Assembly (NCBI RefSeq): GCF_009914755.1
Contig: NC_060933.1
Reading direction: 5' to 3' (one strand)
Length of the DNA stretch: 64,000 nt
Origin: the human T2T-CHM13v2.0 reference genome, Homo sapiens
The notes beneath the pieces were generated by a model. It saw only the letters and a program-made list of their open reading frames with translations, had not been told where the DNA came from and made no database searches. The translations under genes and the position numbers were made by a program. Position 1 is the stretch's first letter. Every line of letters begins with the position of its first letter. This document shows positions 28,129 to 44,045 of this stretch, piece by piece.

Positions 28129-28738
<610 letters not shown>

Positions 28739-28879
28739 TGGTTACCAGAATTCTAAGTTCTGTTAGGGTCTGTTGCCAAGGAAGTGAGGTTGCTTCTTTA
28801 AGGTTCCATCCCCTCAGCCTCCTCCTTCCAGAAGACCTACTCAGGACCCCAGTGGGCTGCTGACTGCTCATCCTCCCCA

Positions 28880-31800
28880 CAGGTCAACTCCTTACCTGTA
28901 CACAGTTATGTCCACCCAGGGCCTACTTGGACACCTGCACCTGATGTTCACCAGGGGCCTAGGAATCCACTTGGGGCCTGGGATCCTACAGGGGCCTAAT
29001 GTTACCCTGCAGATTGAGTAGCCACCTGGGGACCAGATATCAACCTGGGGACTGTGGTTGACCTGTGGGTTAATGTCCACCTGGGGACTGGTTATTCAGC
29101 TGAGGCCTGATGCGTACCTGGGGCCGAATGTCCCCCTCAGGGTGAATTCCACCTCAGATCTGTATGTCCACCTGGGGCCTGATGTCTGCCTTAGATCTAT
29201 GTCCCACTGGGGCCTTGTGATCACCGGGGACTGGTATCCAGCTGTGGCCTGATGACCTACTGCATCCTGTTGCTCACCTACGGCCTGGTGTCTACCTGGG
29301 GCTTGGTGATCGCCTGGGAACTGGATATCAACCTGGGGCCTGGGTGTCCACTTAAGGCCTGATGTGTGCCTGGGGCCTGACTGTCCACCTGGGGACTGGG
29401 TGTCCACCTTGGGTCTGATGACTACCTGAAGTTAGGTATCTACCTAAGGCTTGGTGTCTACCTGTGGCCTGATGTCCACATGAGTCTGGGGTTCAGTTGG
29501 GGCCTGCTGTACATCTGGGACCTTGGTGTCTATCTGAGGCCTGATGTCTACCTGGTGACTGCCATCCTCTTGAGGCCTGATATCCACCTGGGAATGGTTT
29601 ATCCATGGAAATGGTTATGTCCGCCTGGGGCTGGATGTTGCCCAGGGGCTAGATGTCCACCTGTGGCCCCGTGTTCACCTAGTGCCTGATGTCCACCTGG
29701 GGCATGGTGTTCACCTGAGACCCGGGTATTTACATAGGGCCTGATGTCCAGCTGGTGCCTAGGTGCCCACTGGGGGCCTTGTGTTAACCTGGGGACTGGT
29801 ATCCAGCTGGGTCCTAATGACCACCTGGGTTGAATTATTCACCTAGAGTTTGGTATTCACTTAGGGCTTGAGTGTCAGCCTTGGACATGGTGTCCACCTG
29901 GGCCTTGGTTATCAAACAAGGGGTTTGGTATCCAGTTGAGACATCATTTGCACCTGGGGTCTGAGTGTTCGCATGAGGCCAGATGACCACTGGGGGCCTG
30001 AATGTCAACCTGGTGTCTGAAATTCACTGGAAGCCTAGGTATCTAGCTGGGGCCTGATGTCCACCTGGGACTAGGTGTCAACATGTGGCCTGATGTAAAC
30101 CTCTAGTTGAGTGTCCACCTTGGGCCTGATGTCCACTGGGGGACTGATGTTCCCCTTTGATCTGATGTCTACCTGGAAACCGTGTATTCACCCATGGCCT
30201 GATGGTCACCTGGGGTTGAATGTCCAACTGTGGCCAGATGTGCACCCGGATTCTGGGCATCCACCTGAGGCCTGATGTTCAGCTGGGGCCTGGAGTTCAC
30301 CTGAGGCATGATGCCTACCTGAAGCTTAATGTTCATCTGAGTGCTGGATGTTCACCTGGGGCCTGATATCCACCTGGACCCTTCTCAGGCCTGATGTCCA
30401 CAGGACCCTTCTCAGGCCTGATGTCCACAAGTTGGCCTGGTATTCATCTGGGGCCTTCGTGTTAACCTGTGGCCTAATGTACTCCTGGGTTCTAGTGTCC
30501 TCTTGGGACCTGATGTCTACCAGGATCCAGGTATCCACCTGGGGCTCGGTATCCACCTAGGGCTTGATATTCACCTGGGGCCTAGGAATCCACTTGATAA
30601 CTGGTGCCATCGGGGTCCTGATGTTCACCTTGGGACTGGGTAACCACCTGAGGCCTGATGTCCACTTAGGGTATAAGTGTTTATCTGGGGTCTAGTGTTC
30701 ACATAGGGTCTGATGTCAACCTTGAGACTAGGTATTCACCAGGGGACTAGTGTCCAGCTGGGGCCAGATGTTCGCTTGGGGCCTGGTGTCAACTTGGAGC
30801 ATGGTTGTCAACCTAGGACCTGATGTCCAGTCCAGTGTCCACCTTGGGCCTGTTTACTACCCGGGGCCTGTGTGTCCACATAGACCGTGGTGTCAATCTG
30901 GGGCCTGGGTATTTACCGGGTGCCTGGATATTCATTGGTACATTATGTCTACTGGAGTCTTTGTGTCAATCTGAGCTCTGATGTCCACCTAGAGATTGGG
31001 TATCCACCTAAGGCCTGGTGTTTACATGGGGCCTGTAACACGAGGTTCCAGATGAACTCAGATGTCCACCTGAGGCCTGATGTCCACCTGAGTTCTGAGT
31101 GTTCACATAGGGCCTGCTGTCAACTTGGGACCTAAGTATTTACCTAGGGCCTGGGTGTCCACCTGGTGCCTGACTTCCAACTAGATCTTGTGTCAACATG
31201 GGGCCTGATGTCCACTTTGGGCCTAGGTAACTTCCTGATGACGAATGCCCACATGGCTCCTAAGGACCATCTGAGGCCTGGTATTAATTTAGAGACTGGT
31301 ATCCACCTGGGGTCCAGGTATCCACTTGGGACCTGATGTTCACCTGGAGTGTAGGAATTCCCGTGGGGCCTGGTATCCACCTTCAGGGTGTGTATCCAAT
31401 TGAGTGCTGGTGTCCACCTGGAGTCCCATGTATACCTGGGGCCTGATGTACACATGGAGCCTGGGAGTCCATCTAGGACCTGATGTTCAGATAAGGGCTG
31501 GCGTTCTCCTGGCCTGGTGTCCACATGGAGCCTGGGTGTACACTTGAAGCCTGATATCCCAGGTGGATACCTGGGCCCCAGTGGTCATCAGATCCTAGGA
31601 ACCTCTCAGGCCCCAGGTGCACGTAAAGCTCCAAGTGGCCACCTAGGCCACAGGTTGATACACAGGGTCCAGGTGGACACTGGGTGCAAGATGAACACCA
31701 GGCCCCAGGTGTCTGCCTAGTCCTCAAGTGGACACCAGGCACTAGATTGACACACAGGTACCAGGTGGATATCAGGCCACAGGTGAACACCAGGCCCCAG

Positions 31801-34800
31801 GTGGTTGGGTTACTTATAGCATAGGTGGCCATCAGTTCCCAGGTCTATATCCACTCCCCACTTGAAAATCAGGATCCAGGTGGATACCCATGTCCTAGGT
31901 GAACACCAGGTTCCAAATGAACATCAGGCTCCAAGTGAACACACAGGCCCCAGTTCAATACCAGCCTCAGGTAGACATCAGGACCCAGGTGGACCCCAGG
32001 CCCAATGTGCATGCCTAGTCTCTTGGAATACATCATTTTCAAGGTGGACACCCAGATTCCTCAAAGACATCTGGTGCCAGGTGGATATCTGGCTGCAGGT
32101 GGACATCAGGCCCCAGGTGGAGACCCAGTACACAGGTGTAAATCAGGCTCCAGTATTTCATCAGGCCCCAGTTTAACACTTGACTAAAGGTGTGCATCAA
32201 GACCCAGGTTGACAGCCAGGCTTCAGGTGCACACTAGGCCCAAAGTGTACACCTGTGCCAAGGTGGGCATCAGGCCCAAGGTGTACACCAGACCCCAAGT
32301 GGACATCAGGTTCCAGGTTGACACCAGTCTCTAGGTAGATCCTTAAACCCCAGTTGGTCATCAGGCCCAAGGTGGATACCTTGACCCCAGGGGGTCACCA
32401 GGTCTCAGGTCGACACTAAGCCCTAGGTTCAAGGTCTGAGATGGTTTCAGCCCCCATGTGGACTTTAGTCATAAGGAGCTTACCTAGGCCCTAAGTGGAC
32501 ATCAGGCCCCAGGTTGACACAATGAACCATGTAGAAGTCAGGCTGTAAGTAGACACCCAGGCCCTAGGTAAATACTTTGGTCCCAAGCCAACATCAGGCC
32601 CTATGTGGACACCCAGACTCCAGGCAGATGTCAGGCCCCAGGTGAACACTGAACTCAGGGTGGTCATCAGGCCCTAGGTTGACACATAGGCCTCAGGTAG
32701 ACAACAGGCACAGGTGAACTTCAGGCTCCAGATGAACGTCAGGCTCCAGGAAGAAATCTGTGCCCCAGTTAAAACCGGGTCTTAGGTAGACATCAGGCCT
32801 CAAATGGATGCCCAGGCCCCAGGTGGATATAAGGCCTCAGGCAAACACCAGGCCCCAGGTAGACATTAGACACGAGATGGACACTCAAGCCACAAGCGAA
32901 CATCTGTCCCCAGGTGGACATCCACCCAAGGTGGACATCAGGCCAGAGATGTACACCCAGGCCCCAGGAGAACCCCAGGCCCCAGGAGGACACTCAAGTG
33001 CCAGAAGGACACCCAGTCCCTAGGTAACTACAAGGCCCCAAGTGGACATGATGTTCCAGATGGATATGAGGCCCCAAGTGGATACTAGGCCCAGGTGGAC
33101 CCAGATCTCAGGGGCACACCAGGCCCCAGGGGAACACCAGGCCCTAGGTAAGCATGCAGTCCCAGGTGGACATCAGTTGCCAGGAGGACACCAGGACCCA
33201 GTTGCTCATCAAGCCACAGCTGAACACCAGTTCCCCATGAACACCAGTCCTCAGGTGGGCACCTAGTCCTCTTGTGTGCATCAGGTGCCAGGCTGACATA
33301 GGCACCAGCTGAACTCTGGGTCTCAGGTGAACATCAGATCCCAGGTTGTCACCCAGGCCCCAGGTGAACACCAGGTTTTAGGTGGACATGAGGTCCTAGG
33401 TGGATGTCTATGCTCCTGGTGAACCTCAGGCCCTAGTGGACACTCAGGCCCTTTATAGACATCTGGCTCCATGTGCACTCCCAGGGCCCAGGTAGACATG
33501 AGGCCCCAGAGGAACGCCAGTCCTTAATCACCTAAGACTGAATTCCCCTAGGGCTGGAGACTGAGTATTCACCTTGGGCCAAGGAATCTACCTGGGGCCA
33601 GATGTCGATCTGGGGCCTGATGTCTACTCAGGTTCAGCTGTCCACCTAGGGCAGGGTGTTTTTCTGGGACCCAGAGTCTACCTGAAATCTTGGTATCAAC
33701 CTAGGGCCTATGTGTCCACTTGGAGTCTGATGTGCACCTGAAGCCTGAGTTTTCACCTGGGATCTGATGAGCACCTGGGGCCCAGGTTTCCATCTGAAAC
33801 ATCAGGCTCTAGTTATACATCTGGGCCCCAGGTATACACTAGGCACCAAAAGAACTCCAGCCCCTATCTTAACATGAGGTCCTAGGTGAATGCCCAGGCC
33901 TCATGTCTACATAAGGCCTCAGGTAGACATGACTCCAGGCGGGCATCAGGCCTGATATTGGCTCTATGTCTCCACCCAAATCTCATGTTGAATTGTAATC
34001 CCCACGGGTTGAAGAATGGGCCTGGTGAATGGTGATTGAATCATGGGGGCAGACTTCCCACTTGGTGTTCTCGTGATAGAGTTCTTACGAGACCTGGTTA
34101 TTTGAAAGTGTGTAGCACATCCCCATTCTGTCTCCCTCCTCCTCCCACATGGTAAAAAGGGCTTGCTTCCTCTTGGCTTTACATCATGATTGTAAGTGTC
34201 CTGAGCCCGCCCAGTCATGCTCCCTATTAAGCCTGAAGAACTGTGGGTCAGTTAAACCTCTTTTCCTCATAAGTTGCCCAATATCAGGTAGTTTTTTATA
34301 ACTGTGAAAATGGACTAATACAAGGCCTTAGGATAACAACCATGCTTCAGGCCATAGGTGGACATCTGGCTGCAACTGGACACTATTCCCCAGGTGGATA
34401 CCTAGGCTCAAGGTTGACATTAGTCCCCAGGTAAACAACAAGCCCCAGGTGAATACCTATGCCCTAGCAGACATCAGGCCTCAGGCTGACACTCAGTCTA
34501 ACCTCAACATTAGGCTCCAGGTGGACGCCCAGACTCCAGGTGGATACTAGACCCCAGGGGTACCAGACTCCTGGTAGGCATAAGACCCCAGGAGGACACT
34601 AGAATCCAGGTGTACATAAAGCCACTGGTTGACACCAAGCCCTCAGATGAACACCAGGCCAACTAGTGGACGTTAGGCACATGAGAATACTTGGGCACCA
34701 GGTAGGTATCAGGCCCCAGGTAAACATCAAACTTCAGGTGGACATCATTCTCCATGTGAACTCTAGCCCCAGCTAAACATCAGGCTCCAGGTGGAAGCCC

Positions 34801-36855
34801 AGACCCCAGGAGCACTTCTGGCCACAGTTGAACATCTGTCTCCAGGTGAATATCAGACCATGGATGGATAGCAAGTCCCCAGGTGGACATCAGGTCAAAA
34901 GTGAATATAAGTCTCTAGGAAGACATCTGGCCCCAGGTGGATACTGAACTAGAGGTTTACATCAGGCCCCAGGTTGACACGCAGGCTCGGGTGGACATTA
35001 GGCCCCAGGTGGATACCTAGGCCCCTAGTAAACCTCAGATTCTAGGTTGACATTCAGGCCCCCAGTAGTCATTTGGCCCCAAGTGGACACTCAGGAGCCA
35101 AGTTCACATGATGTCTTAACTGGACACCAAGGGGCCAGTTTGATACCCAATCCTATGTGGGTGCCAGGTCCAAGGTTACACTCAAGCCCCAAGTGGACAC
35201 CAGGCCCTAGGTGAATAATACAACCCAGGTGGTCATTAGGCCCCAGAATGACACCAGTCCCCAGGTTAACAGGAAGCCCCCAGTGGGTACCTAGGCCCCA
35301 GCTGGACATCAGGCCCAATGTGGACACCCAGGATCAAGATGGACATCAGGACTCAGGTGGACATCTGGTGACAGGTGGACATCAAGCCTGGTGTGTACCT
35401 TGTCCCCGGGTGGTCATCAGGCCCCAGTTCAACACCAGTCCCCGGGTGGACTCCTCGGCTCCAGGTGGACATCCGGTCTTCAGCTGAACATCAGACCCCA
35501 GGTGAACTCCAGGTTTTAGGTGGACATTAGGCCCCTGGTGGACATAAAGTATCAGTGGACATCCATGCTGCAGGTGGACACCCAGGGCCCAGATGGGCAT
35601 CAGGCCCCATTTGGACATTGAGGCCCCAGGTGGATATCAGGCCTCAGGTGAACCCTAGGTCCAACATAGACATCAGGCCTTAGGTTGACACTCAAGCACC
35701 AGATGGACTGCTGCACCTAAGCAGAAAACAGACCCTTATCTGGATATCTAAGATACAGGTATACAACAAGCCCCAGGCTGACATCCAGAACCCAGGTGGA
35801 CACCATACCCCAGGTGAACAGCAGGCAACAGTTTGGCACCAAGTACCTAAGTGAAACAAAGCCTTAGGTGATTACCAGGCCATAGGTAGTCATTAGTCTC
35901 CAGCTGGACAATAGTCCCTAGGTGGATACCCAGGCCCCAGGTGGACACTAGACCCCAGATTAACACAAAAACCAAGTAAAAAATCAAGCCCCAAGTGGAC
36001 AACCAGGCCCTAGGTAAATACACAAATCTCAAGCTGACACCAGGCCCTATTTGGACACCCAAGCCCTAGGTGGACTTCGGACCCCAGGTGAACACTGAAC
36101 TCTAGAAGGTCTTCAGGCCCTGTGTTGACTACCTGGCCCCAGGGAGACACCAGGCATAGATGAACTTCAGGCACCAGCTGTACATCAGGTTCCAGGCAAA
36201 TGTCCAGGCCCCAGGTGGGTATCACACCTCAGATGAACACCAGGCCCCAGGTAGACATCACAAACCAGGTGGACACTCAGGCCCCTACTGAATATCCGTC
36301 CCCAGGTGGACATCTGTCCCAAGGTGGACACGAGGCCACAGATGTACACTTAAGCCTAAGGCAGACCCCAGTCCCCAGGAAAACTCCAGGCTCCATGAGG
36401 GCACTCAGACCCCAGATGGATGCACTGGTCCTAGGTAAATACAAGGCCCCAGGTAGACAGCAGGCCCCAGTGAACACTGGAGCCCAGGTGGGTACCTAGT
36501 CCCCAGGTGTGCATCAGGCAGAAGGTTGACCCAGTCCCCAGCTGAACTCTGGGCCCCAGCTGAACATCATAACCCAGATGGTCACCCAGGCTCCAGGTGA
36601 ACACATGGTCTTAGGTGGACATCAGGCCCCACATGAACACCCAAGCCCCAGGTAGAGATCAGGCCTTAGGTGTACACCAGACCTCAGGTGGGCATCTGGC
36701 TCCAGATGGCCATAGGTGGATAACTAAGCCTCTCGTGGATATCAGGCCCCAGGTGGGCACCAGGCTCCAGGCGAACATCTAGCCCCAGGGGGACATCCAG
36801 CCCCTGGTGGACATCAGGGCTCACATGGATAAACAGTTTACAGATGGACACCTGC
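28880..36855. repeat. Degenerate GC-rich, CpG-poor satellite of ~19/20-bp units (consensus ~CCCCAGGTGGACATCAGG / CCCCAGGTGGACACCCAGG), mixed polarity
   Basis: Hundreds of diverged units. CCACCTGGGG polarity at 28880-~31558 and ~33540-33795; CCCCAGGTGG polarity elsewhere. I cannot assign a named family. Confidence 0.93.
33953..34322 (+). mobile_element. Solo MaLR LTR (THE1D/MSTA-like) inside the satellite
   Basis: TGATAT...GGACTAATACA, 370 bp; 5-bp TSD AGGCC at 33948-33952 and 34323-34327. Confidence 0.92.
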
Positions 36856-39800
36856 CACAGGTGCCTCACCTCTACTCCCTGAAACCTCACTTCCCCTCAT
36901 GGGCCTTCTGTCCGACTTGCGGTACCCCTAGCCGCCCTAGGCACACACTGGACTCGAACCAGGGGTGCCAGGGTCCCTGGGGCTCAGCGCAAGGGTTCAT
37001 GGGAATACACTTTCGTCCGTGGGGGACCCAGTCCTCACTTCTCGGCGGCGCAGTTTTTTTTTTCTCTGCCCCAGGTGCCTCACCTTCCCCTCATGGGCCT
37101 TCTGTCCACCTTGTGGTACCCCTGGCGGCCCGAGGCGCACCCTGGGCTCGAACCAGGGATGCCAGGGTCCCCAGGGCACAGCGCAAGGGCTGATGGGGAG
37201 ACACTTTCTTCCGTGGGGGTCCCAGGCCCCGCTTCTCCGTGGCGCGTTTTTTTTCCCTCTGCCCCAGGTGGGTCACCTTCCCCTCATGGGTCTTCTGCCC
37301 GCTTTGGGGTACCCCTAGTGGCCCCAGGCACACGCTGGGCTCAAATAAGGGTGGCCAGGGTCCCCGGGGCCCAGCGCAAGGGTTGATGGGAAGACACTTT
37401 CACCCGTGGGGGACCCAGGCCCCGCTTCTCCGCAGCACTGTGTTTTGTTTTTTTTTTTCTCTGCCCCAGGTGACTCACTTTCCCCTCATGGGCCTTCTGC
37501 CCACTTTGGGTTACCCCTAGCAGGCCAGAGGCGCACCCTGCATTCGAGCCAGGGACGACAGGGTCCCCGGGGCCCAGCACAAGGGCGGATGAGACGGCAC
37601 TTTCGTCCTTGGGGGACCCAGGCCCTGCTTCTCTGTGGCGCGGTTTTTTTTTTCTTTTATGCCACAGGTGCCATACCTCTCCTCCCTCAAACCTCACCTT
37701 CCCCTCATAGGCTTTCTGCCCGCCATGGGGTACCCCAAGAGGCCCGAAGCGCACCCTGGTCTTGAACCAGGGATGCCAGGGTCCCCTGGGCCCAGCTCAG
37801 GGGCTGATGGGAAGACACTTTCTTCCGTGGGGGACCCAGGCCCCGCTTCTCCGCAGCACAGTTTTTTTTTTTCTCTGCCTCAGGTGCCTCACCTACCCCT
37901 CATGGGCCTTCTGCCCGCTTCTGGGTACCCCTAGCGGGCCCAAGGCGCACCCTGGGCTCGAACCAGGGTCGCCAGTGTCCGCGAGGTCCAGCGCAAGGCC
38001 TGATGGGAAGGCACTTTCGTCAGTGGGGGACACAGGCCCAGCTTCACTGCGGCGCGGTTTTTTTTTTTTCCTGCCACAGGTGCCTCACCTTCCCGTCATG
38101 GGCTTTCTGTCCGCCTTGGGGTACCCCCAGCGGCCCGAGGCGCACCCTGGGCTCGAACCAGGGATGCCAGGGTCCCTGGGGCCTAGCACCGGGTCTGATG
38201 GGAAGGCACTTTCTTTCGTGGGGAACCCAGGCCTCCCTTCTCCGTGGCGAGGTTTTTTCCTTTTTTCTCCGCCCCAGGTGCCTCACCTTCCCCTCATGGG
38301 CTTCTGCCCACTTTGGGGTACGGCTAGCGGCCCGAGGCGCACACTGGGTTCGAACCAGGGTCGCCAGGGTGCACGGGGCCAAGCGCAGGGGCTAATGGTA
38401 AAGCACTTTCGTCCGTGGGGGACCCAGGCCCCCCTTCTCCGTGGCGCGTTTTTATTTTTTCTGCCATAGGTGCCTCACCTCTCCTCCCTCAAACCTCACC
38501 TTCGCCTCATGGGCCTTTTGCCCGCCTTGGGGTACCCCTAGTGGCCCGAGGCGAACCATGGGGTCGAACCAGGGACGCCAGGGTTCCCGGGGCCCAGTGC
38601 AAGGGCTGATAGGAAGACACTTTCGTCCGTGGGGGACCCAGGCACCGCTTCTCCGCGGCGCAGTTTTTTTTTTTTTCTTTTGGCTGCCCCAGGTACCTCA
38701 CCTTCCCCTCATGAGCCATCTGCCTGATTTGGAGGTACCCCTAGTGGACCGAGGCGCACCCTCGGCTCGAATCAGGGTCGTCAGGGTCCCCGGGGCGCAG
38801 CGCAAGGGCTGATGGGAAGACACTTTCGTCCGTGGCGGACCCAGGCCCCGCTTCTCTGCGGTGCGGTTTTTTTGTTTTTTTTTGTCTGCCACAGGTGCCT
38901 CACCTCTCCTCCCTCAAACCTCAACTTCCCCTCATGGGCTTTCTGCCCGCCTCGGGGTACCCCTAACGGCCCGAGGCGCACCCTGGGTTTGAGCCAAGGT
39001 CGCCAGGGTCCACGGGGCTCAGCGCAGGGCCTGATGGGAAGGCACCTTCGTCCGTGGGGGACCCATGCCCTGCTTCTCCGTGGCGCGTTTTTTTTTCTGC
39101 CACAGGTGCCTCACCGCTCCTCCCTCAAACCTCACCTTCCCCTCATGGGCCTTCTGTCTGCCTTGGGGTACACCTAGCGGCCCGAGGTGCACTGTGGGCT
39201 CGAACCAGGGAAGCCAGGGTCCCTGTGGCCCAGCGCAAGGGCTGATGGGAAGACACTTTCGTCCGCTGGGGGGACCCAGTCCCCGCTTCTCCGCGGCGAG
39301 GTTTTTTTTTTTTTTTTTTGTCTGCCCCAGGTGCCTCACCTTCCCCTCATGGGCCTTCTGCACACTTTGGGGTACCCCTAGCGGCCCGAGGCGCACCCTG
39401 GGCTCGAACCATGGAGGCCAGGTTCCATGGGGCCAAGCGCAGTGGCTGATGGGAAGGCACTTTCGTCCCTGGGAGACCCAGGCACCAGTTCTCCGCTGCG
39501 AGGTTTTTTTGTTTTTTTTTTTTTTTTTTTTTTTTCTGCCACAGGTGCCTCATCTCTCCTGCCTCAAACCTCAGCTGAAACTTTTGGGCCTTCTTTCCTC
39601 CTTGGGGTACTCGTAGCAGCCTGAGGCGCAGCGTGGGCTCGAACCAGGGATGTCAGCGTCCTCGGGACCCAGCTCAAGGGCTGACGGAAAGACACTTTCG
39701 TCAGTGGGGGACCCAGGCCCCGCTTCTCCGCTGCGCGGTTTTTCTTCTTTCTCTGCCGCAGGTGCCTCACCTTCCCCTCATGGGCTTTCTGCTCTCCTTG

Positions 39801-42722
39801 GGGTACCCCTAGCGGGTCCAAGGTGCACCCTGGTTTCCAGCCAGGGACACCAGGTTCCCCAGGGCCCAGCGCAGGGGCTGATGGGAAGGCACCTTCGTCC
39901 GTGGAGGAGCCAGGCCCCGCTTTTCTGCAAGCGCGGTTTTTTTTTCCTTTGCCCCAGGTGTCTTACCTTCCTCTCATGGGCTTTCTGCCGGCTTCTGGGT
40001 AACCCTAGCGGGCGCGAAGCGCACTTGGGGCTCGAACCAGGGTTGCCAGGGTCCATGGAGCCCAGGGCAGGGGCTGATGGGAAGACACTTTCATCCGTGG
40101 GGGACCCAGGTCCCGCTTCTTTGCGGCGCGGTTTTTTTTTTTCTCTGCCCCAGGTGTCTCACCTTCCCCTAATGAGCATTCTGCCCGCTTTGGGATACCC
40201 CTATTGGGCACGAGGCGCACCCTGGGCTCTAACCAGGGTCGCCAGTGTCCATGGGGCCCAGCGCAGGGGCTGATGGGAAGGCACTTTCGTCCCTTGGGGA
40301 CCCAGGCCCCGCTTCTCCGCGGCGTGTTTTTTTTTTTTTTTTTTCCTGCCACAGTTGCCTCACGTCTCCTCCCTCAAACCTCACCTTCCCCTCATGGGCC
40401 TTCTGTCCGACTTGGGGTACCCCTAGTGGCCAGACGCACACCCTGGGTTCGAAACTGGGACACCAGGGTCCCCGGGGCCCAGCGCAAGGGCTGATGCGAA
40501 GACACTTTCTTCCTCGGGGACCCAGGCTCTGCTTCTCTGCGACGTTTTTGTTTTTGTTTTTTTCGCTTTTCCCCAGGTGCCTCACCTTCCCCTCATGGGC
40601 TTTCTGCCCGCCTTGAGGTACCACTAGCGGGCCCGAAGCGCACCCTGGTTTCGAGCCAGGGACGCTAGGGTCTCCGGGGCCCAGTTCAGGGCTGATGGGT
40701 AGGGACGTTCGTCTGTGGGGGACCCAGGCCCCACTTCTGGGCGGCGCAGTTTTTTTATTTTTTTCTCTGCCCCAGGTGTCTCACCTTTCCCTCATGGGCC
40801 TTCTGTCTGCCTTGGGGTACCCCTAGCAGGCCGAGGCGCATGCTGGGCTCGAGCCAGGGATACCAGGGTCCCTGGGGCGCAGCGCAAGCGCTGATGTGAG
40901 GACAGTTTCTTCTGTGGGGGAGCCAGGCCCCGCTTATAGGCGGCGCGGTTTTTTTTTTTTTTTTTCCTCTGCCCCAGGTGCATCACCTTCCCCTCATGGG
41001 CCTTCTGCCCGCTTTTGGGCACCCCTAGCGGCCTGAAGCGCACCCTGGTCTCGAACCAGGAATGCCAGGGTCACCTGGGCCCAGCGCAAGGGCTGATGGG
41101 AAGACACTTTTGTCCGTTGGGGACCCAGGCTCTGCTTCTCCGTGGTGCGGTTTTTTTTTTTTTCTGCCACAGGTGCCTCACCTCGCCTTCCTCAAACCTC
41201 AACTGCCCCTCATGGGATTTCTGCCCGCTTGTCTTCCGAGGCTGCGGTGTGGATCTCGCACTGCGGCCGCCTCGCCTTGGCTGGGGAGAACCTCGGTGGG
41301 TAGGATTCAGAGGGGCTTTTGGTTTCCCATTTTCCACACTGAACCCTTCTAACTGGTCTCTGACCCTGATTATTAAGGGCTGCAAACAGGAAGGATTTTA
41401 TTCACCATTGATGCGGCTCCGAGTAGTCCCAAAGCGAGGCAGTGCCCACAAGGTCTGTGCTGAGAAGGCTGCTCTGCCTTCGCGGTGTCTCCCGGGTGTG
41501 TGCTGAGCAGAACGCAGCTCCGCCCTCGCGGTGCCCCTGGCCCGCCCGCCCGGGTCTGTGCTGAGGAGAACATGCTCCGCTTCGCTGTATCTCCGAAGTC
41601 TGTGCAGAGGAGAACTCAGCTCCGCCCTGGCAATGCTCTCCGGGTCTGTGCTGAGGAGAAGGCAGCTCCGCCCTCGCAAAGGCACAGGGCGCCGGCGCAG
41701 GCGCAGAGAGGCGCACGGGGGTACCCCTAGCGGGCTCGAGGCCCACCCGTGGCTTGAACCAGGGTCTCCAGGGTCCACAGGGCCCAGAGCAGGAGCTGAT
41801 GGGAAGGCATTTTCATCGTGGGGGACCCAGGCCCTGCTTCTCCGTGGCGCGGGTTGTTTTTTTTTCTTTTTCTGTGACAGGTGCCTCACCACTCCTCCCT
41901 CAAAACTCACCTTCCCTCATGGGCTTTGTGCTCCCAAAGCTCCCCTTGGGGTGCACGTAGCGGCTGAGGCACACCCTGAGCTCGAACCAGGGACACCAGG
42001 GTCCCCGGGTCCCAGTGCAGGGACTGATGGGAAGACACTTTCGTCCGTGGGGAATCAGGCCGCGCTTCTCTGCAGCGAAGTTTTTTTTTTCTCTGCCCCA
42101 GGTGCCTCGCCTTCCCCTTATGGGCTTTCTGCCCACCTTGGGGTAACACTAGTGGCCCGAGGCGTACCCTGGGATCAAACCAGGGACGCCAGGGACCTCA
42201 GTGCCAAGCGAACGGGCTAAGGAGAAGACAATTTCCTCCGTGAGGGACCCAGGCACTGCTTCTCGGCGGCGCGTTTCTTTACTTTCTCTGCCTCAGGTGC
42301 CTCACCTTCCGCTCATGGACCATTTGTTCGCTTTCTGGTACCGCAAGCGGTCCCGAAGCGCACCCTGGGCTCGAACCAGGGTCGTCACTGTCCACTCTGC
42401 CCAGGGTACAGCATAATGGGAAGGCACTTTCATCCATGGGGGACCCAGGCCCCACTTGTCTGAGGCGAGGTCTCCTGTTTTTTTCCTGCCCCTGGTGCCT
42501 CACCTCTATTCCCACAAACTTCAAATTCAACTCATGGGCCTTCTGTCCGAGTTGGGGTACCCCTAGTGGCCCGACGCGCACCCTGGGCGCCAACGACGGA
42601 TGCCAGGGTCCCTGGGGACCAGCGCAAGGGCTGATGGGAAGACATTTTCGTCAGTAGATGACCCAGAAACCGCTTGGCGATGCATTTTTTTCTCTGCCCC
42701 AGGTGCCTCAACTTCCCCCCAT
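36855..42722. repeat. Gamma-satellite array (GSATII-like), ~27 monomers of ~190-225 bp, interrupted at 41231-41716
   Basis: Tandem monomer 'gccccaggtgcctcaccttcccctcatggg...ggggtacccctagcggcccgaggcgcaccctgggctcgaaccaggg...gctgatgggaagacactttcgtccgtgggggacccaggcc...(T)n'. Tandem structure is certain; family name from recall. Confidence 0.82.
41231..41716 (+). repeat. TAR1 (telomere-associated repeat) fragment at an interstitial position
   Basis: About five 'gtctgtgctgaggagaac..agctccgcc' units and one 'gcgccggcgcaggcgcagagagg' 29-bp-type unit, matching the human subtelomeric 37/29-bp repeat block. Confidence 0.88.
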
Positions 42723-43518
42723 CAGCCTCCTGTCTCTCTGCACCTGCGCCGGCGCCGTGCTCTTCTCTGCGCCGCCACCGTTGCTGGGGGATGGGTCCCT
42801 GAGACTTGGCGAAGTAGGAGTACTGGACTCGTGCACAGGCCCTGTCTCGCAGGTTTTCAGGTGCGCTTGGCGTTTCCTCCGCTTTGAGGGGCAGGTCTCC
42901 AGTGGCCCCCGGGCGCAGGCCTGGACATCACTGTCCGTCTCATCGTCGCCCACTACGGCCTCAGAGACACAGGCTCACTGCATGTGCTCTTGGGGGACGT
43001 CAGTGCCACGTGTGGTCACACTGGCTCCGGCTCGGACTAGCCTCTGTCTCTCTTTGCCCGTGTCGCCGGAAGCCGCGTCGAGATGCCGGAGCCCCCGGGC
43101 CTTGGAGATGAAGGCAGGCCCCTGCTCCACCCAGGAAGGAGGGAGGCAGTGGGCTCGTGGGTCAGTGCCTTTGCAGGCGACAGCACGCCTTGCGGCCCTG
43201 GGGATCTTTCTGTGCCCCGGCGAGAGCCTTTCCGCCTCACTGCATTGTAACCCCATTCCCGATCACCGGGTGGGATCCATCATCGGATCCCAAGAGGAGT
43301 CCGCGCAGCCCAGCCGACACCCCGAAGCTCCTCCTTCACCGAGAACCCAAGCAGAAGACCGATCAAGGAGGTCCTGACGACAGGACTCCTATGGGTCCGA
43401 CCCTGGGTCTCCCGCAGGCCCCTCTGGTAGTCCTCTTCCCACCCGCCGCCCGGGGCTGCGCCGCAGCCGCCGCCGCAACCTCCAGCACCGCCGCCCCAGT
43501 CCCCGCAGCCGCCGCGTC

Positions 43519-43639
43519 GCCGCCATTTTTTAAAGGGTCCGCAGCCTGACTCTGCCGAGTAAGGGGGGGTGGGGCGGGTGAGTCGGCCTCGCCAGTGCGC
43601 ATGCGCGAGGCCCGAGCCGCCGCTTTGGTCACAGTGACC
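43519..43639. promoter_or_regulatory. Candidate CpG-island core promoter: YY1 (43519-43530), GC box (43571-43578), NRF1 (43596-43607), ERE (43627-43639)
   Basis: Motifs GCCGCCATTTT, GGGGCGGG, TGCGCATGCGCG and GGTCAcagTGACC within 121 bp. Activity not shown. Confidence 0.65.
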
Positions 43640-44045
43640 GCCACCGTCGCCGGGGGATGGGTCCCTGAGACTTGGCGAAGTAGGAGCCCTGTGTGATCGT
43701 GCGTCAGAGTCGGGGCTGAGACCAGCCCTGGCCAGGGCAGTTACCAGGACGGTCTCCGGAGGCCGGGATTCGCGGAGGGTCCACCAGCAGGAAGAAACCC
43801 CAGGAGGAAGAAACCTCAGACAGATCGCCGGGGAGGCAGCGCGGGATCCCAGCCTCAGGCGTGCGCGGACGGTGTGCGGGTGAGTCTCCCCAAAAGTGGC
43901 GCCCTTGTGATGTCGAGGACAGGTCTCCCTGTGTGCCCGTGGGCTGCTGTCTCACCGGTGGCTCGTAGTCGCGGAGACCAGAACCCGGCAGCTTCAGGGG
44001 CTGCCTGGGGGTGGGTGTTACCTGCTGTATGTCTGTGTCCATTAT

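What the first reader, a model, noticed from the sequence alone, without database searches (positions are those of the whole stretch)
28880..36855. 8-kb 19/20-bp satellite arranged as a large imperfect palindrome
Units read CCACCTGGGGCCTGATGT from 28880 and flip at ~31558 ('gcctgatatcc|caggtggatacc') to CCCCAGGTGGACATCAGG with no spacer. Because the unit is short, the 2.7-kb left arm could pair with the right arm in many registers, giving a hairpin or cruciform in DNA and long dsRNA from a transcript of either strand. Divergence between units would weaken pairing. I do not recognise this as a named satellite family.
Basis: partly seen in the sequence, partly recalled or inferred. Interest (0 to 1): 0.8.

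Follow-up and report, generated by a model that had tools for sequence, protein, structure and literature searches.

The report
Old 18-bp minisatellite with internal inversions
This is a real but old and decayed 18-base tandem repeat whose blocks point in opposite directions, copied passively to about 21 places near human centromeres and ribosomal gene arrays, with no sign so far that it does anything.

Summary
The repeat is real. About 417 degenerate units of 18 bp (not 19/20) lie at window 28880-36855, and the orientation switches without a spacer at 31558/31559.

It is not one simple palindrome. The layout is F 2.7 kb, R 2.0 kb, F 0.25 kb, R 0.15 kb, a 373-bp interspersed-repeat insertion, then R 2.5 kb.
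- Homology above the array background links 29672-30785 with 34348-35381, and 31407-31800 with 33554-33949. This is an old inverted duplication that already contained the 31558 switch.
- Around 31558 itself I found no inverted match above background.

The block lies in a segmental duplication with at least 21 copies on chr2, 9, 13, 14, 15, 20, 21, 22 and Y. All 19 compared copies share the F|R layout. Four older CDRT15-like paralogs carry only a short one-way array.

The arms group by arm type, not by copy. Within-copy arm identity (0.759) equals between-copy identity (0.758), so no arm-to-arm conversion is seen. Covariation is negligible.

A DNA cruciform is energetically implausible. An RNA holding both arms would fold into a long imperfect duplex, but no annotated transcript spans both arms.

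Best reading: a neutral minisatellite rearranged by inverted duplications and carried along by segmental duplication. Interest is low to moderate. Dfam and T2T repeat tracks could not be consulted.

The parts
28880..31558 (+). Block F1: about 147.5 units of the 18-bp repeat in forward orientation (consensus CCACCTGGGGCCTGATGT), 73.0% identity to consensus
31558..31559 (.). Orientation switch F to R with no spacer (...GCCTGATATCC|CAGGTGGATACC...). It is present in all 19 aligned paralogs.
31559..33530 (-). Block R1: about 108.5 units in reverse orientation, 73.4% identity to consensus. It forms the 1.75-kb spacer between the homologous inverted arms.
33550..33796 (+). Block f: about 13 units, forward orientation again
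33797..33952 (-). Block r: about 9 units, reverse orientation. The f|r junction is the inverted copy of the 31558 junction.
33953..34325 (.). Full-length interspersed repeat of about 365 bp inserted in the array. From memory it resembles a MaLR-type solo LTR; the family name was not tested.
   Evidence: 5280 first-look candidates. Of the 40 scored, 22 are dispersed full-length matches at 78-81% on unrelated chromosomes and 18 are the duplicon copies. It is present in 16 of 19 compared copies.
34340..36855 (-). Block R2: about 139 units in reverse orientation, 73.3% identity to consensus. It is about 1.3 kb shorter here and in two other chr9 copies than in the other complete copies.
29672..30785 (+). 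Arm A of the old inverted duplication; its partner is 34348-35381
   Evidence: ungapped blocks at 78-82%; 73.7% over 1116 columns, 696 bits; the next best alignment scores 260 bits; 0.78 in MAFFT
34348..35381 (-). Arm A', the inverted partner of 29672-30785
31407..31800 (.). Segment B, which contains the 31558 switch; its inverted copy B' lies at 33554-33949 (74% over 400 columns)
33554..33949 (.). Segment B', the inverted copy of 31407-31800

Best explanation
This is a decayed, non-coding, GC-moderate 18-bp minisatellite with no function of its own.

Proposed history:
1. It began as a short one-way array of 0.1-0.6 kb, about 0.6 kb upstream of a CDRT15-family gene copy.
2. In the lineage that gave the pericentromeric duplicon, the array expanded by slippage or unequal exchange.
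3. It was rearranged at least twice by intra-array inverted duplication. The likely mechanism is fold-back or template switching at short microhomology, made easy because the core CCACCTGG is nearly self-complementary.
4. The first event made the F|R switch at 31558.
5. A later event copied about 29672-31800, switch included, in inverted orientation to 33554-35381.
6. An interspersed repeat then inserted at 33953-34325.
7. The whole block was carried passively by segmental duplication to at least 21 pericentromeric and acrocentric sites.

Shown: the anatomy, the paralogs, the shared architecture, the order of events, and the lack of arm-to-arm homogenisation.
Inferred: the molecular mechanism of the inversions, neutrality, and the direction short-to-long.

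A by-product is that any RNA holding opposite blocks would form long imperfect dsRNA. The array also shows minisatellite-type structural changes between copies.
For: Anatomy.

Inverted homology above background occurs only for A/A' and B/B'.

At least 21 copies, identity to this window 92-99.8% in most array segments:
- Nineteen were compared, counting the window.
- Two more, at chr14:13.54-13.55 Mb and chr22:16.46 Mb, were seen only as matches.
- Identity drops to 77-88% in two segments (parts of A and A') where copies differ structurally.

Shared architecture:
- 19 of 19 compared copies share the F|R and R|f junctions.
- 16 of 19 have the inserted repeat and R2.

Arm relationships:
- 19 left arms and 16 right arms form two separate clades.
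- Left-right identity is 0.759 within a copy (n=16) and 0.758 between copies (n=288).
- Left-left identity is 0.959 and right-right 0.936.
- The inverted duplication therefore long predates dispersal, and the arms have not been homogenised since.

Divergence between paralogs is similar in the array (about 93-99.8%) and in the unique left flank (94-100%).

Four of four older CDRT15-like paralogs examined (chr4:132.43 Mb, chr9:30.69 Mb, chr17:15.67 Mb, chr22:23.21 Mb) carry only a 0.1-0.6-kb forward array. It is collinear with window 28736-29592 at 73-85% identity and lacks the Alu at 28145-28735.

Other negatives:
- No ORF above 167 aa in any frame.
- No Rfam family at gathering score in 20000-50000.
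- No tRNA.
- Covariation term -2.06 of -313 kcal/mol, and 3 of 257 pairs with two-sided changes.
Against: - Predicted RNA pairing between opposite blocks is strong, so a dsRNA role is physically possible.
- RefSeq predicts a lncRNA exon at 34945-43879 that starts inside R2 (hub table), so part of the array is probably transcribed.
- In the shuffle control, 0 of 500 shuffles reached the observed covariation score (0.033 against 0.030) or the 13 cells with two-sided changes. The tool warns that related sequences can give this result without any structure.
- Neutrality is inferred from paralogs of one genome only. No orthologs, population data or expression data were available.
- The short arrays in older paralogs could be contractions rather than the ancestral state. 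Only 4 such paralogs were examined; several others listed (chr17, chr12, chr1, chrY) were not.
Confidence: 0.75

Rival explanations
1. Hairpin-RNA locus. Transcripts through opposite blocks, in cis or between copies in trans, form imperfect dsRNA of about 1 kb that is a substrate for ADAR, Dicer or MDA5.
For: - Flip-centred 800-nt RNA folds with z -8.1.
- A with A' co-folds with a gain of -732 kcal/mol and 879 intermolecular pairs.
- The longest exact complementary word between the arms is 26 nt, and 24 positions have words of at least 20 nt.
- A predicted lncRNA exon starts in R2 (hub table).
- At least 21 copies could add up.
Against: - No annotated transcript in this window spans both orientations (hub table).
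- The longest perfect helix in the flip-centred fold is 16 bp.
- The arms are only 75-78% alike and show no homogenisation.
- Covariation is negligible.
- No Rfam match.
- Fold stability follows automatically from any inverted repeat.
Confidence: 0.07
2. Structure-prone DNA element. Hairpins forming on single-stranded DNA during replication make the array a hotspot for breakage and template switching, and so shape the duplicon's rearrangements.
For: - A 300-nt single strand at the flip folds with z -4.1.
- There are at least three orientation switches inside 8 kb.
- A junction to unrelated sequence at about 33651-33658 is shared by 3 copies. Their tails are 93-99.6% alike, so this is one event.
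- The chr20 copy is truncated inside R2.
- R2 differs by about 1.3 kb between copies.
- One whole 18-bp unit is gained or lost between copies.
Against: - 15 of 19 compared copies keep the full layout.
- Homology continues on both sides of the array in most copies, so the array is not the usual duplicon boundary.
- The number of events is small and was not compared with a control region.
- Cruciform extrusion from duplex DNA is energetically excluded.
Confidence: 0.12
3. Regulatory E-box cluster. The unit carries CACCTG, which I recall as the binding site of ZEB, SNAI and E-protein factors, so the array could act as a binding-site sink or an upstream regulator of the CDRT15-family copy.
For: - CACCTG occurs 155 times in the window against 42.1 expected. 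Most hits lie in the array and follow block orientation.
- The array is ancestrally upstream of CDRT15-like copies.
Against: - The excess is a direct consequence of the repeat consensus.
- The neighbouring gene copy is annotated as a pseudogene (hub table).
- No binding data were available.
- A recalled CTCF-like consensus is not enriched: 7 matches against 7.1 expected.
Confidence: 0.04
4. Remnant of a coding hexapeptide repeat, since 18 bp equals 6 codons.
For: - The unit length is a multiple of 3.
- RefSeq places a pseudogene (LOC100419926, 35303-35821) inside R2 (hub table).
Against: - The longest stop-to-stop frame touching the array is 167 aa and lies mostly in the neighbouring 197-bp repeat. 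Within the array the longest is 146 aa.
- Indels are frequent: about 163 insertions and 97 deletions over 417 units.
Confidence: 0.02

Closest known systems
GC-rich minisatellites (VNTR class)
   Same: Unit of 18 bp; head-to-tail arrays of 0.1-2.7 kb per block; degenerate units; whole-unit gains and losses between copies.
   Different: - The units are far more diverged (73% to consensus) than in typical hypervariable minisatellites.
- The blocks lie in opposite orientations.
- Length polymorphism between people was not tested.
Large inverted repeat of the acrocentric distal junction (Floutsakou et al. 2013, PMC3847771; passages read)
   Same: An old, imperfect inverted repeat next to rDNA arrays, shared by all five acrocentric chromosomes. 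The paper gives arm identity of about 80%; here it is 75-78%.
   Different: - The distal-junction arms are about 109 kb of complex sequence with transcription units.
- Here the arms are about 1-2 kb of minisatellite on the proximal side, and they also occur at non-acrocentric pericentromeres.
Cruciform-forming palindromes such as PATRRs, and the Y-chromosome palindromes (recalled, not from a call)
   Same: Adjacent inverted DNA with no spacer at 31558.
   Different: - Those have near-identical arms, and the Y palindromes have arm-to-arm gene conversion.
- Here the arms are 63-78% alike and show no conversion.
- GC is 0.46-0.60 across the region, so it is not AT-rich.
- The cruciform cost is +54 to +294 kcal/mol.
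Strand switches inside human satellite arrays, as described for T2T centromeric satellites (recalled; only search listings seen)
   Same: A tandem array whose orientation flips within the array.
   Different: Those are large, homogeneous satellite arrays. This is a small, decayed minisatellite inside a segmental duplication.
Inverted Alu pairs as ADAR substrates (recalled)
   Same: An imperfect inverted repeat that would give a long mismatched RNA duplex if both arms are co-transcribed.
   Different: No evidence here of co-transcription or editing. The arms are tandem-repeat sequence and can pair in many registers.

Membership tests
Minisatellite / VNTR | Tandem head-to-tail unit of about 10-100 bp | tested here: met
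   Period 18 by Tandem Repeats Finder. Lag-18 autocorrelation 0.47 against a median of 0.24. About 417 units.
Minisatellite / VNTR | Copy-number variation by whole units | tested here: inconclusive
   Between paralogs there is one 18-bp unit indel and a difference of about 1.3 kb in R2. Variation between individuals is not testable here.
Named human satellite family (Dfam / Repbase / T2T annotation) | A curated entry matching the unit | not testable with these tools
   - No Dfam, Repbase or T2T track is on hand.
- The unit core appears in no relevant paper text (1 paper found, unrelated).
- The Hoyt et al. preprint has no mention of 18 bp or palindrome, and its supplements are closed.
- The hub note lists no masked stretch among its 20 longest inside 28880-36855.
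Named human satellite family (Dfam / Repbase / T2T annotation) | Homogeneous units in long arrays | tested here: not met
   73% identity to consensus. Tandem Repeats Finder gives 56-62% matches for the long rows. The total length is only 7.6 kb.
Cruciform-forming DNA palindrome | Near-identical mirror arms around the centre | tested here: not met
   No above-background inverted match is centred on 31558. The best arms are 74-78% alike, and their centre is about 1 kb away, with a 1.75-kb spacer between the inverted duplicated segments (29672-31800 and 33554-35381).
Cruciform-forming DNA palindrome | Extrusion energetically within reach | tested here: not met
   Two hairpins minus the duplex give +54, +112 and +294 kcal/mol for 50, 100 and 300 bp.
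Gene-converting palindrome (Y-chromosome type) | Arms of one copy more alike than arms of different copies | tested here: not met
   0.759 within a copy (n=16) against 0.758 between copies (n=288). The arms form two separate clades.
Hairpin-RNA / edited dsRNA locus | Stable long fold of an RNA holding both arms | tested here: met
   z -8.1. Co-fold gain of -732 kcal/mol with 879 intermolecular pairs.
Hairpin-RNA / edited dsRNA locus | Both arms in one transcript; editing or small RNAs observed | not testable with these tools
   The hub's RefSeq table shows only an exon from 34945 on the + strand. No expression, editing or small-RNA data are on hand.
Hairpin-RNA / edited dsRNA locus | Pairing kept by compensatory change | tested here: inconclusive
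   3 of 257 pairs show two-sided changes, and the covariation term is -2.06 of -313 kcal/mol. The sequences are 92-99.8% alike, so power is low.
Pericentromeric / acrocentric segmental duplication | At least 1 kb at 90% identity or more in several non-allelic places | tested here: met
   At least 21 copies on 9 chromosomes.

The most novel reading that the evidence does not exclude
The inverted 18-bp blocks, present in at least 21 copies including one beside each of the five rDNA arrays, are co-transcribed in some cell type. They would then yield imperfect dsRNA of about 1 kb that feeds ADAR editing, small-RNA production or innate dsRNA sensing. This would be a multi-copy endogenous dsRNA source that older assemblies could not resolve.
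Probability: 0.07. Interest if true: 0.6.

Novelty: new member of a known kind. Interest (0 to 1): 0.25.

Why it matters
If my reading is right, this is ordinary: one more decayed minisatellite inside pericentromeric duplications.

It still has some use:
- It is a clean marker for the history of a duplicon shared by chr9, chr2q21, chr20, chrY and the proximal side of all five rDNA arrays. The order of events can be read from it: short CDRT15-upstream array, expansion, two inversions, repeat insertion, dispersal.
- Repeat annotators might add it as an unnamed 18-bp family.
- It would matter more only if transcripts spanning the flips exist, because the predicted RNA duplex is long.

Tried and rejected
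- Coding repeat: rejected, no long frames.
- Known RNA family or tRNA origin: nothing found.
- CTCF-site array, using a consensus recalled from memory: 7 matches against 7.1 expected, only 1 inside the array. Rejected.
- G-quadruplex array: 0-1 canonical motifs per block. Rejected.
- Mirror palindrome centred on 31558: no above-background match. Rejected.
- Arm-to-arm gene conversion: rejected.
- Faster evolution of the array than its flank. This was suggested by 84% against 96% identity. It was traced to local structural differences; segment by segment the array is 92-99.8% identical. Rejected.
- Covariation test at the flip: uninformative. The structure was derived from the same alignment, and the sequences are very similar.
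- The published version of the T2T repeat paper and its supplements were not held.
One search shows only that the chr13 rDNA begins near 5.78 Mb with 46.97-kb spacing (first 40 candidates scored). That the five acrocentric copies lie about 40 kb centromere-proximal of the rDNA arrays rests on array end coordinates that I recall, not on a call.
Full report
**Observation**

The tandem repeat is real.
- Tandem Repeats Finder reports period 18 all through 28950-36818. Examples are 29073-29829 (41.7 copies, 60% matches), 32812-33201 (21.6 copies, 62%) and 34708-36818 (116.3 copies, 56%).
- Base autocorrelation peaks at lag 18 (0.47 against a median of 0.24).
Shuffled sequence gives 51%.
- A 14-letter core with up to 2 mismatches hits the + strand only before 31750. 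After 31500 it hits the - strand only, except for two + hits at 33501-33750.

**Anatomy**

The region is not one two-armed palindrome. It consists of:

| Block | Window position | Orientation | Units |
|---|---|---|---|
| F1 | 28880-31558 | forward | about 147.5 |
| R1 | 31559-33530 | reverse | about 108.5 |
| f | 33550-33796 | forward | about 13 |
| r | 33797-33952 | reverse | about 9 |
| inserted repeat | 33953-34325 | not array | - |
| R2 | 34340-36855 | reverse | about 139 |

- The non-array stretch is a complete interspersed repeat. The own-genome search gave 5280 first-look candidates. Of the 40 scored, 22 are full-length matches at 78-81% on unrelated chromosomes. From memory it looks like a MaLR-type solo LTR; I did not test the family.
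- The F1|R1 switch has no spacer.

**Which parts are truly inverted copies**

- Because every block is built from similar units, any F block matches any R block at 63-69% in many registers. There are 64 minus-strand alignments and 242 inverted pairs of at least 30 nt.
- Only two pairs stand above this background. The first is 29672-30785 with 34348-35381, at 73.7% over 1116 columns and 696 bits, where the next best alignment scores 260 bits. Its ungapped blocks are 78-82%.
- The second is 31407-31800 with 33554-33949, at 74% over 400 columns.
- These two pairs are collinear in the inverted sense. A segment of about 29672-31800, which already contained the 31558 switch, was therefore duplicated in inverted orientation onto 33554-35381. 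The spacer between them is 1.75 kb.
- Around 31558 itself the inverted matches have centres from 31494 to 31831 and background identity. It is an orientation switch without detectable mirror homology.
- There is also an old direct duplication, 32459-33370 to 35905-36777, at 68%.

**Paralogs and origin**

- The window's genome holds at least 21 copies of the block: four on chr9, two on chr13, five on chr14, one on chr15, one on chr20, two on chr21, three on chr22, two on chr2 and one on chrY.
- I fetched 18 of them.
- With the window that makes 19 sequences. All 19 have the F1|R1 and R1|f junctions, 16 have the inserted repeat and R2, and 15 have the full layout.
- The 31558 junction aligns cleanly in all 19.
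- Most segments are 92-99.8% identical to this window, much like the unique left flank at 94-100%. The exceptions are 77-88% in parts of A and A', where the copies differ structurally.
- One copy on each acrocentric chromosome (chr13 9.39 Mb, chr14 2.86 Mb, chr15 4.75 Mb, chr21 5.65 Mb, chr22 5.76 Mb) lies, by rDNA end coordinates that I recall, about 40 kb on the centromere side of the rDNA. This is the 'proximal junction', which Floutsakou et al. describe as almost entirely segmentally duplicated (PMC3847771, passages read). A 2026 preprint calls it widely duplicated (10.64898/2025.12.22.696095, passages read).
- One search confirms only that the chr13 rDNA starts near 5.78 Mb with 46.97-kb spacing.
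- Four older paralogs of the left flank, which carries the CDRT15 pseudogene, were examined: chr4:132.43 Mb, chr9:30.69 Mb, chr17:15.67 Mb and chr22:23.21 Mb.
- All four continue collinearly into window 28736-29592 at 73-85% identity, lack the Alu at 28145-28735, and carry only a 0.1-0.6-kb forward array.
- The simplest order of events is therefore: short array upstream of a CDRT15-family copy, expansion, first inversion, inverted duplication, repeat insertion, then dispersal. Other such paralogs listed were not examined.
- Separate arrays of the same unit exist at chr7:57.87 Mb (3.1 kb, in R-F-R order) and chr3:128.4 Mb (1.4 kb). There are small ones at chr1:2.48 Mb and chr17:21.5 Mb.

**Tests for maintenance**

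- In a tree of 19 left arms and 16 reverse-complemented right arms, the sequences split by arm type, not by copy.
- Left-right identity is 0.759 within a copy (n=16) and 0.758 between copies (n=288). Left-left identity is 0.959 and right-right 0.936.
- The inverted duplication is therefore several times older than the dispersal, and the arms have not been homogenised since.
- At the flip, RNAalifold gives a covariation term of -2.06 out of -313 kcal/mol. Only 3 of 257 pairs have two-sided changes.
- In the pair count, the observed covariation score is 0.033 against 0.030 for shuffles. None of 500 shuffles reached it, which the tool warns can happen with related sequences alone.
- I read this covariation test as uninformative rather than as support.

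**Physical potential**

DNA:
- A 300-nt single strand at the flip folds at -69.8 kcal/mol against -53.3 for shuffles, z -4.1.
- Extruding a cruciform from the duplex would cost +54, +112 and +294 kcal/mol for 50, 100 and 300 bp. From memory, this is far above what perfect palindromes need.
- Hairpins on transiently single-stranded DNA remain possible.

RNA:
- 800 nt centred on the flip gives z -8.1 against 25 shuffles. One-orientation blocks give z +0.3 to -1.1, and the second flip gives z -4.3.
- The longest perfect helix in the flip-centred fold is 16 bp.
- The two best arms co-fold with a gain of -732 kcal/mol and 879 intermolecular pairs. Non-partner R blocks give -291 and -307, and a same-orientation block gives -26.
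- The hub's RefSeq table shows no transcript spanning opposite blocks. The only exon here starts at 34945.

**Other readings checked**

- No frame over 167 aa.
- No Rfam family and no tRNA.
- A recalled CTCF consensus is not enriched, at 7 against 7.1 expected.
- Canonical G-quadruplex motifs number 0-1 per block.
- CACCTG is enriched, at 155 against 42.1 expected in the window. This follows directly from the unit consensus.

**Instability between copies**

- One whole-unit indel.
- About 1.3 kb of R2 is absent from three chr9 copies, this one included.
- The chr20 copy is truncated inside R2.
- One junction at about 33651-33658 leads to other sequence. It is shared by three copies whose tails are 93-99.6% alike, so it is a single event.
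- This fits minisatellite behaviour, but I had no control region to call the array a hotspot.

**Literature**

- The unit core occurs in no relevant paper text.
- The T2T repeat preprint does not mention an 18-bp unit or a palindrome (passages only; supplements closed; the published version is not held).
- Searches on CDRT15 with duplications, on strand switches in satellites, and on 18-bp repeats with acrocentric or pericentromeric gave nothing on this array (listings only).
- The 2026 acrocentric preprint calls unknown satellites only above 86% identity between adjacent 2-kb windows. This array would not reach that.
- Dfam, Repbase and the T2T tracks could not be consulted.

**Verdict**

- The feature is real, but the description needs correcting. 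It is an 18-bp decayed minisatellite with at least three orientation switches, not a simple palindrome.
- It is most likely a neutral passenger of a pericentromeric and acrocentric duplicon (confidence 0.75).
- The cruciform idea fails.
- The dsRNA idea is physically sound but has no support from annotation or evolution here. I give it about 0.07.

Noticed in passing
window 36885-41183 (GC-rich sequence continues to about 43879): A GC-rich tandem repeat of 193-197 bp starts right after the 18-bp array. It travels with the same duplicon and also occurs at chr21:0.23 Mb, chr15:0.16 Mb, chr14:1.66 Mb, chr22:3.84 and 10.66 Mb, chr21:2.34 and 7.62 Mb, chr15:1.87 Mb, chr3:95.75 Mb and chr9:76.97 Mb. 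There is no Rfam or tRNA match. The family was not identified.
   Followed up: partly
window 28145-28735: The Alu between the CDRT15-like flank and the array is absent from the four older paralogs examined, where alignments jump from 28144 to 28736. It inserted after the pericentromeric lineage split off.
   Followed up: partly
G000 chr2:132,198,542-132,204,081 (-) and 132,229,423-132,234,031 (+): The two chr2 copies face each other about 25 kb apart, each with its flank. This suggests a much larger inverted duplication at that site.
   Followed up: no
L021 about 5107, L017 about 5305, L018 about 5287 (equivalent to window 33651-33658): Three copies (chr2:132.23 Mb, chr22:16.09 Mb, chr14:13.09 Mb) leave the array at the same point for a shared tail. 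That tail contains window 41229-41712 in inverted orientation at about 90% identity. It is a structural variant of the duplicon with a breakpoint inside the short forward block.
   Followed up: partly
alignment A1, columns 544-561 and neighbouring sites: The 18-bp unit deletion is shared by three chr9 copies and both chr2 copies, while other variable sites group the copies differently. This mosaic suggests gene conversion between loci.
   Followed up: no
L028 (chr7:57,869,400-57,872,600) and L033 (chr3:128,406,400-128,407,900): These are separate arrays of the same 18-bp unit outside the duplicon. The chr7 array has an R-F-R layout, and one of its flips aligns at 68% with the 31558 flip region.
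   Followed up: partly
window 35303-35821 and 34945: RefSeq's pseudogene LOC100419926 lies wholly inside block R2, where no long frame exists. The predicted lncRNA exon starts at 34945, inside arm A' (hub table).
   Followed up: no
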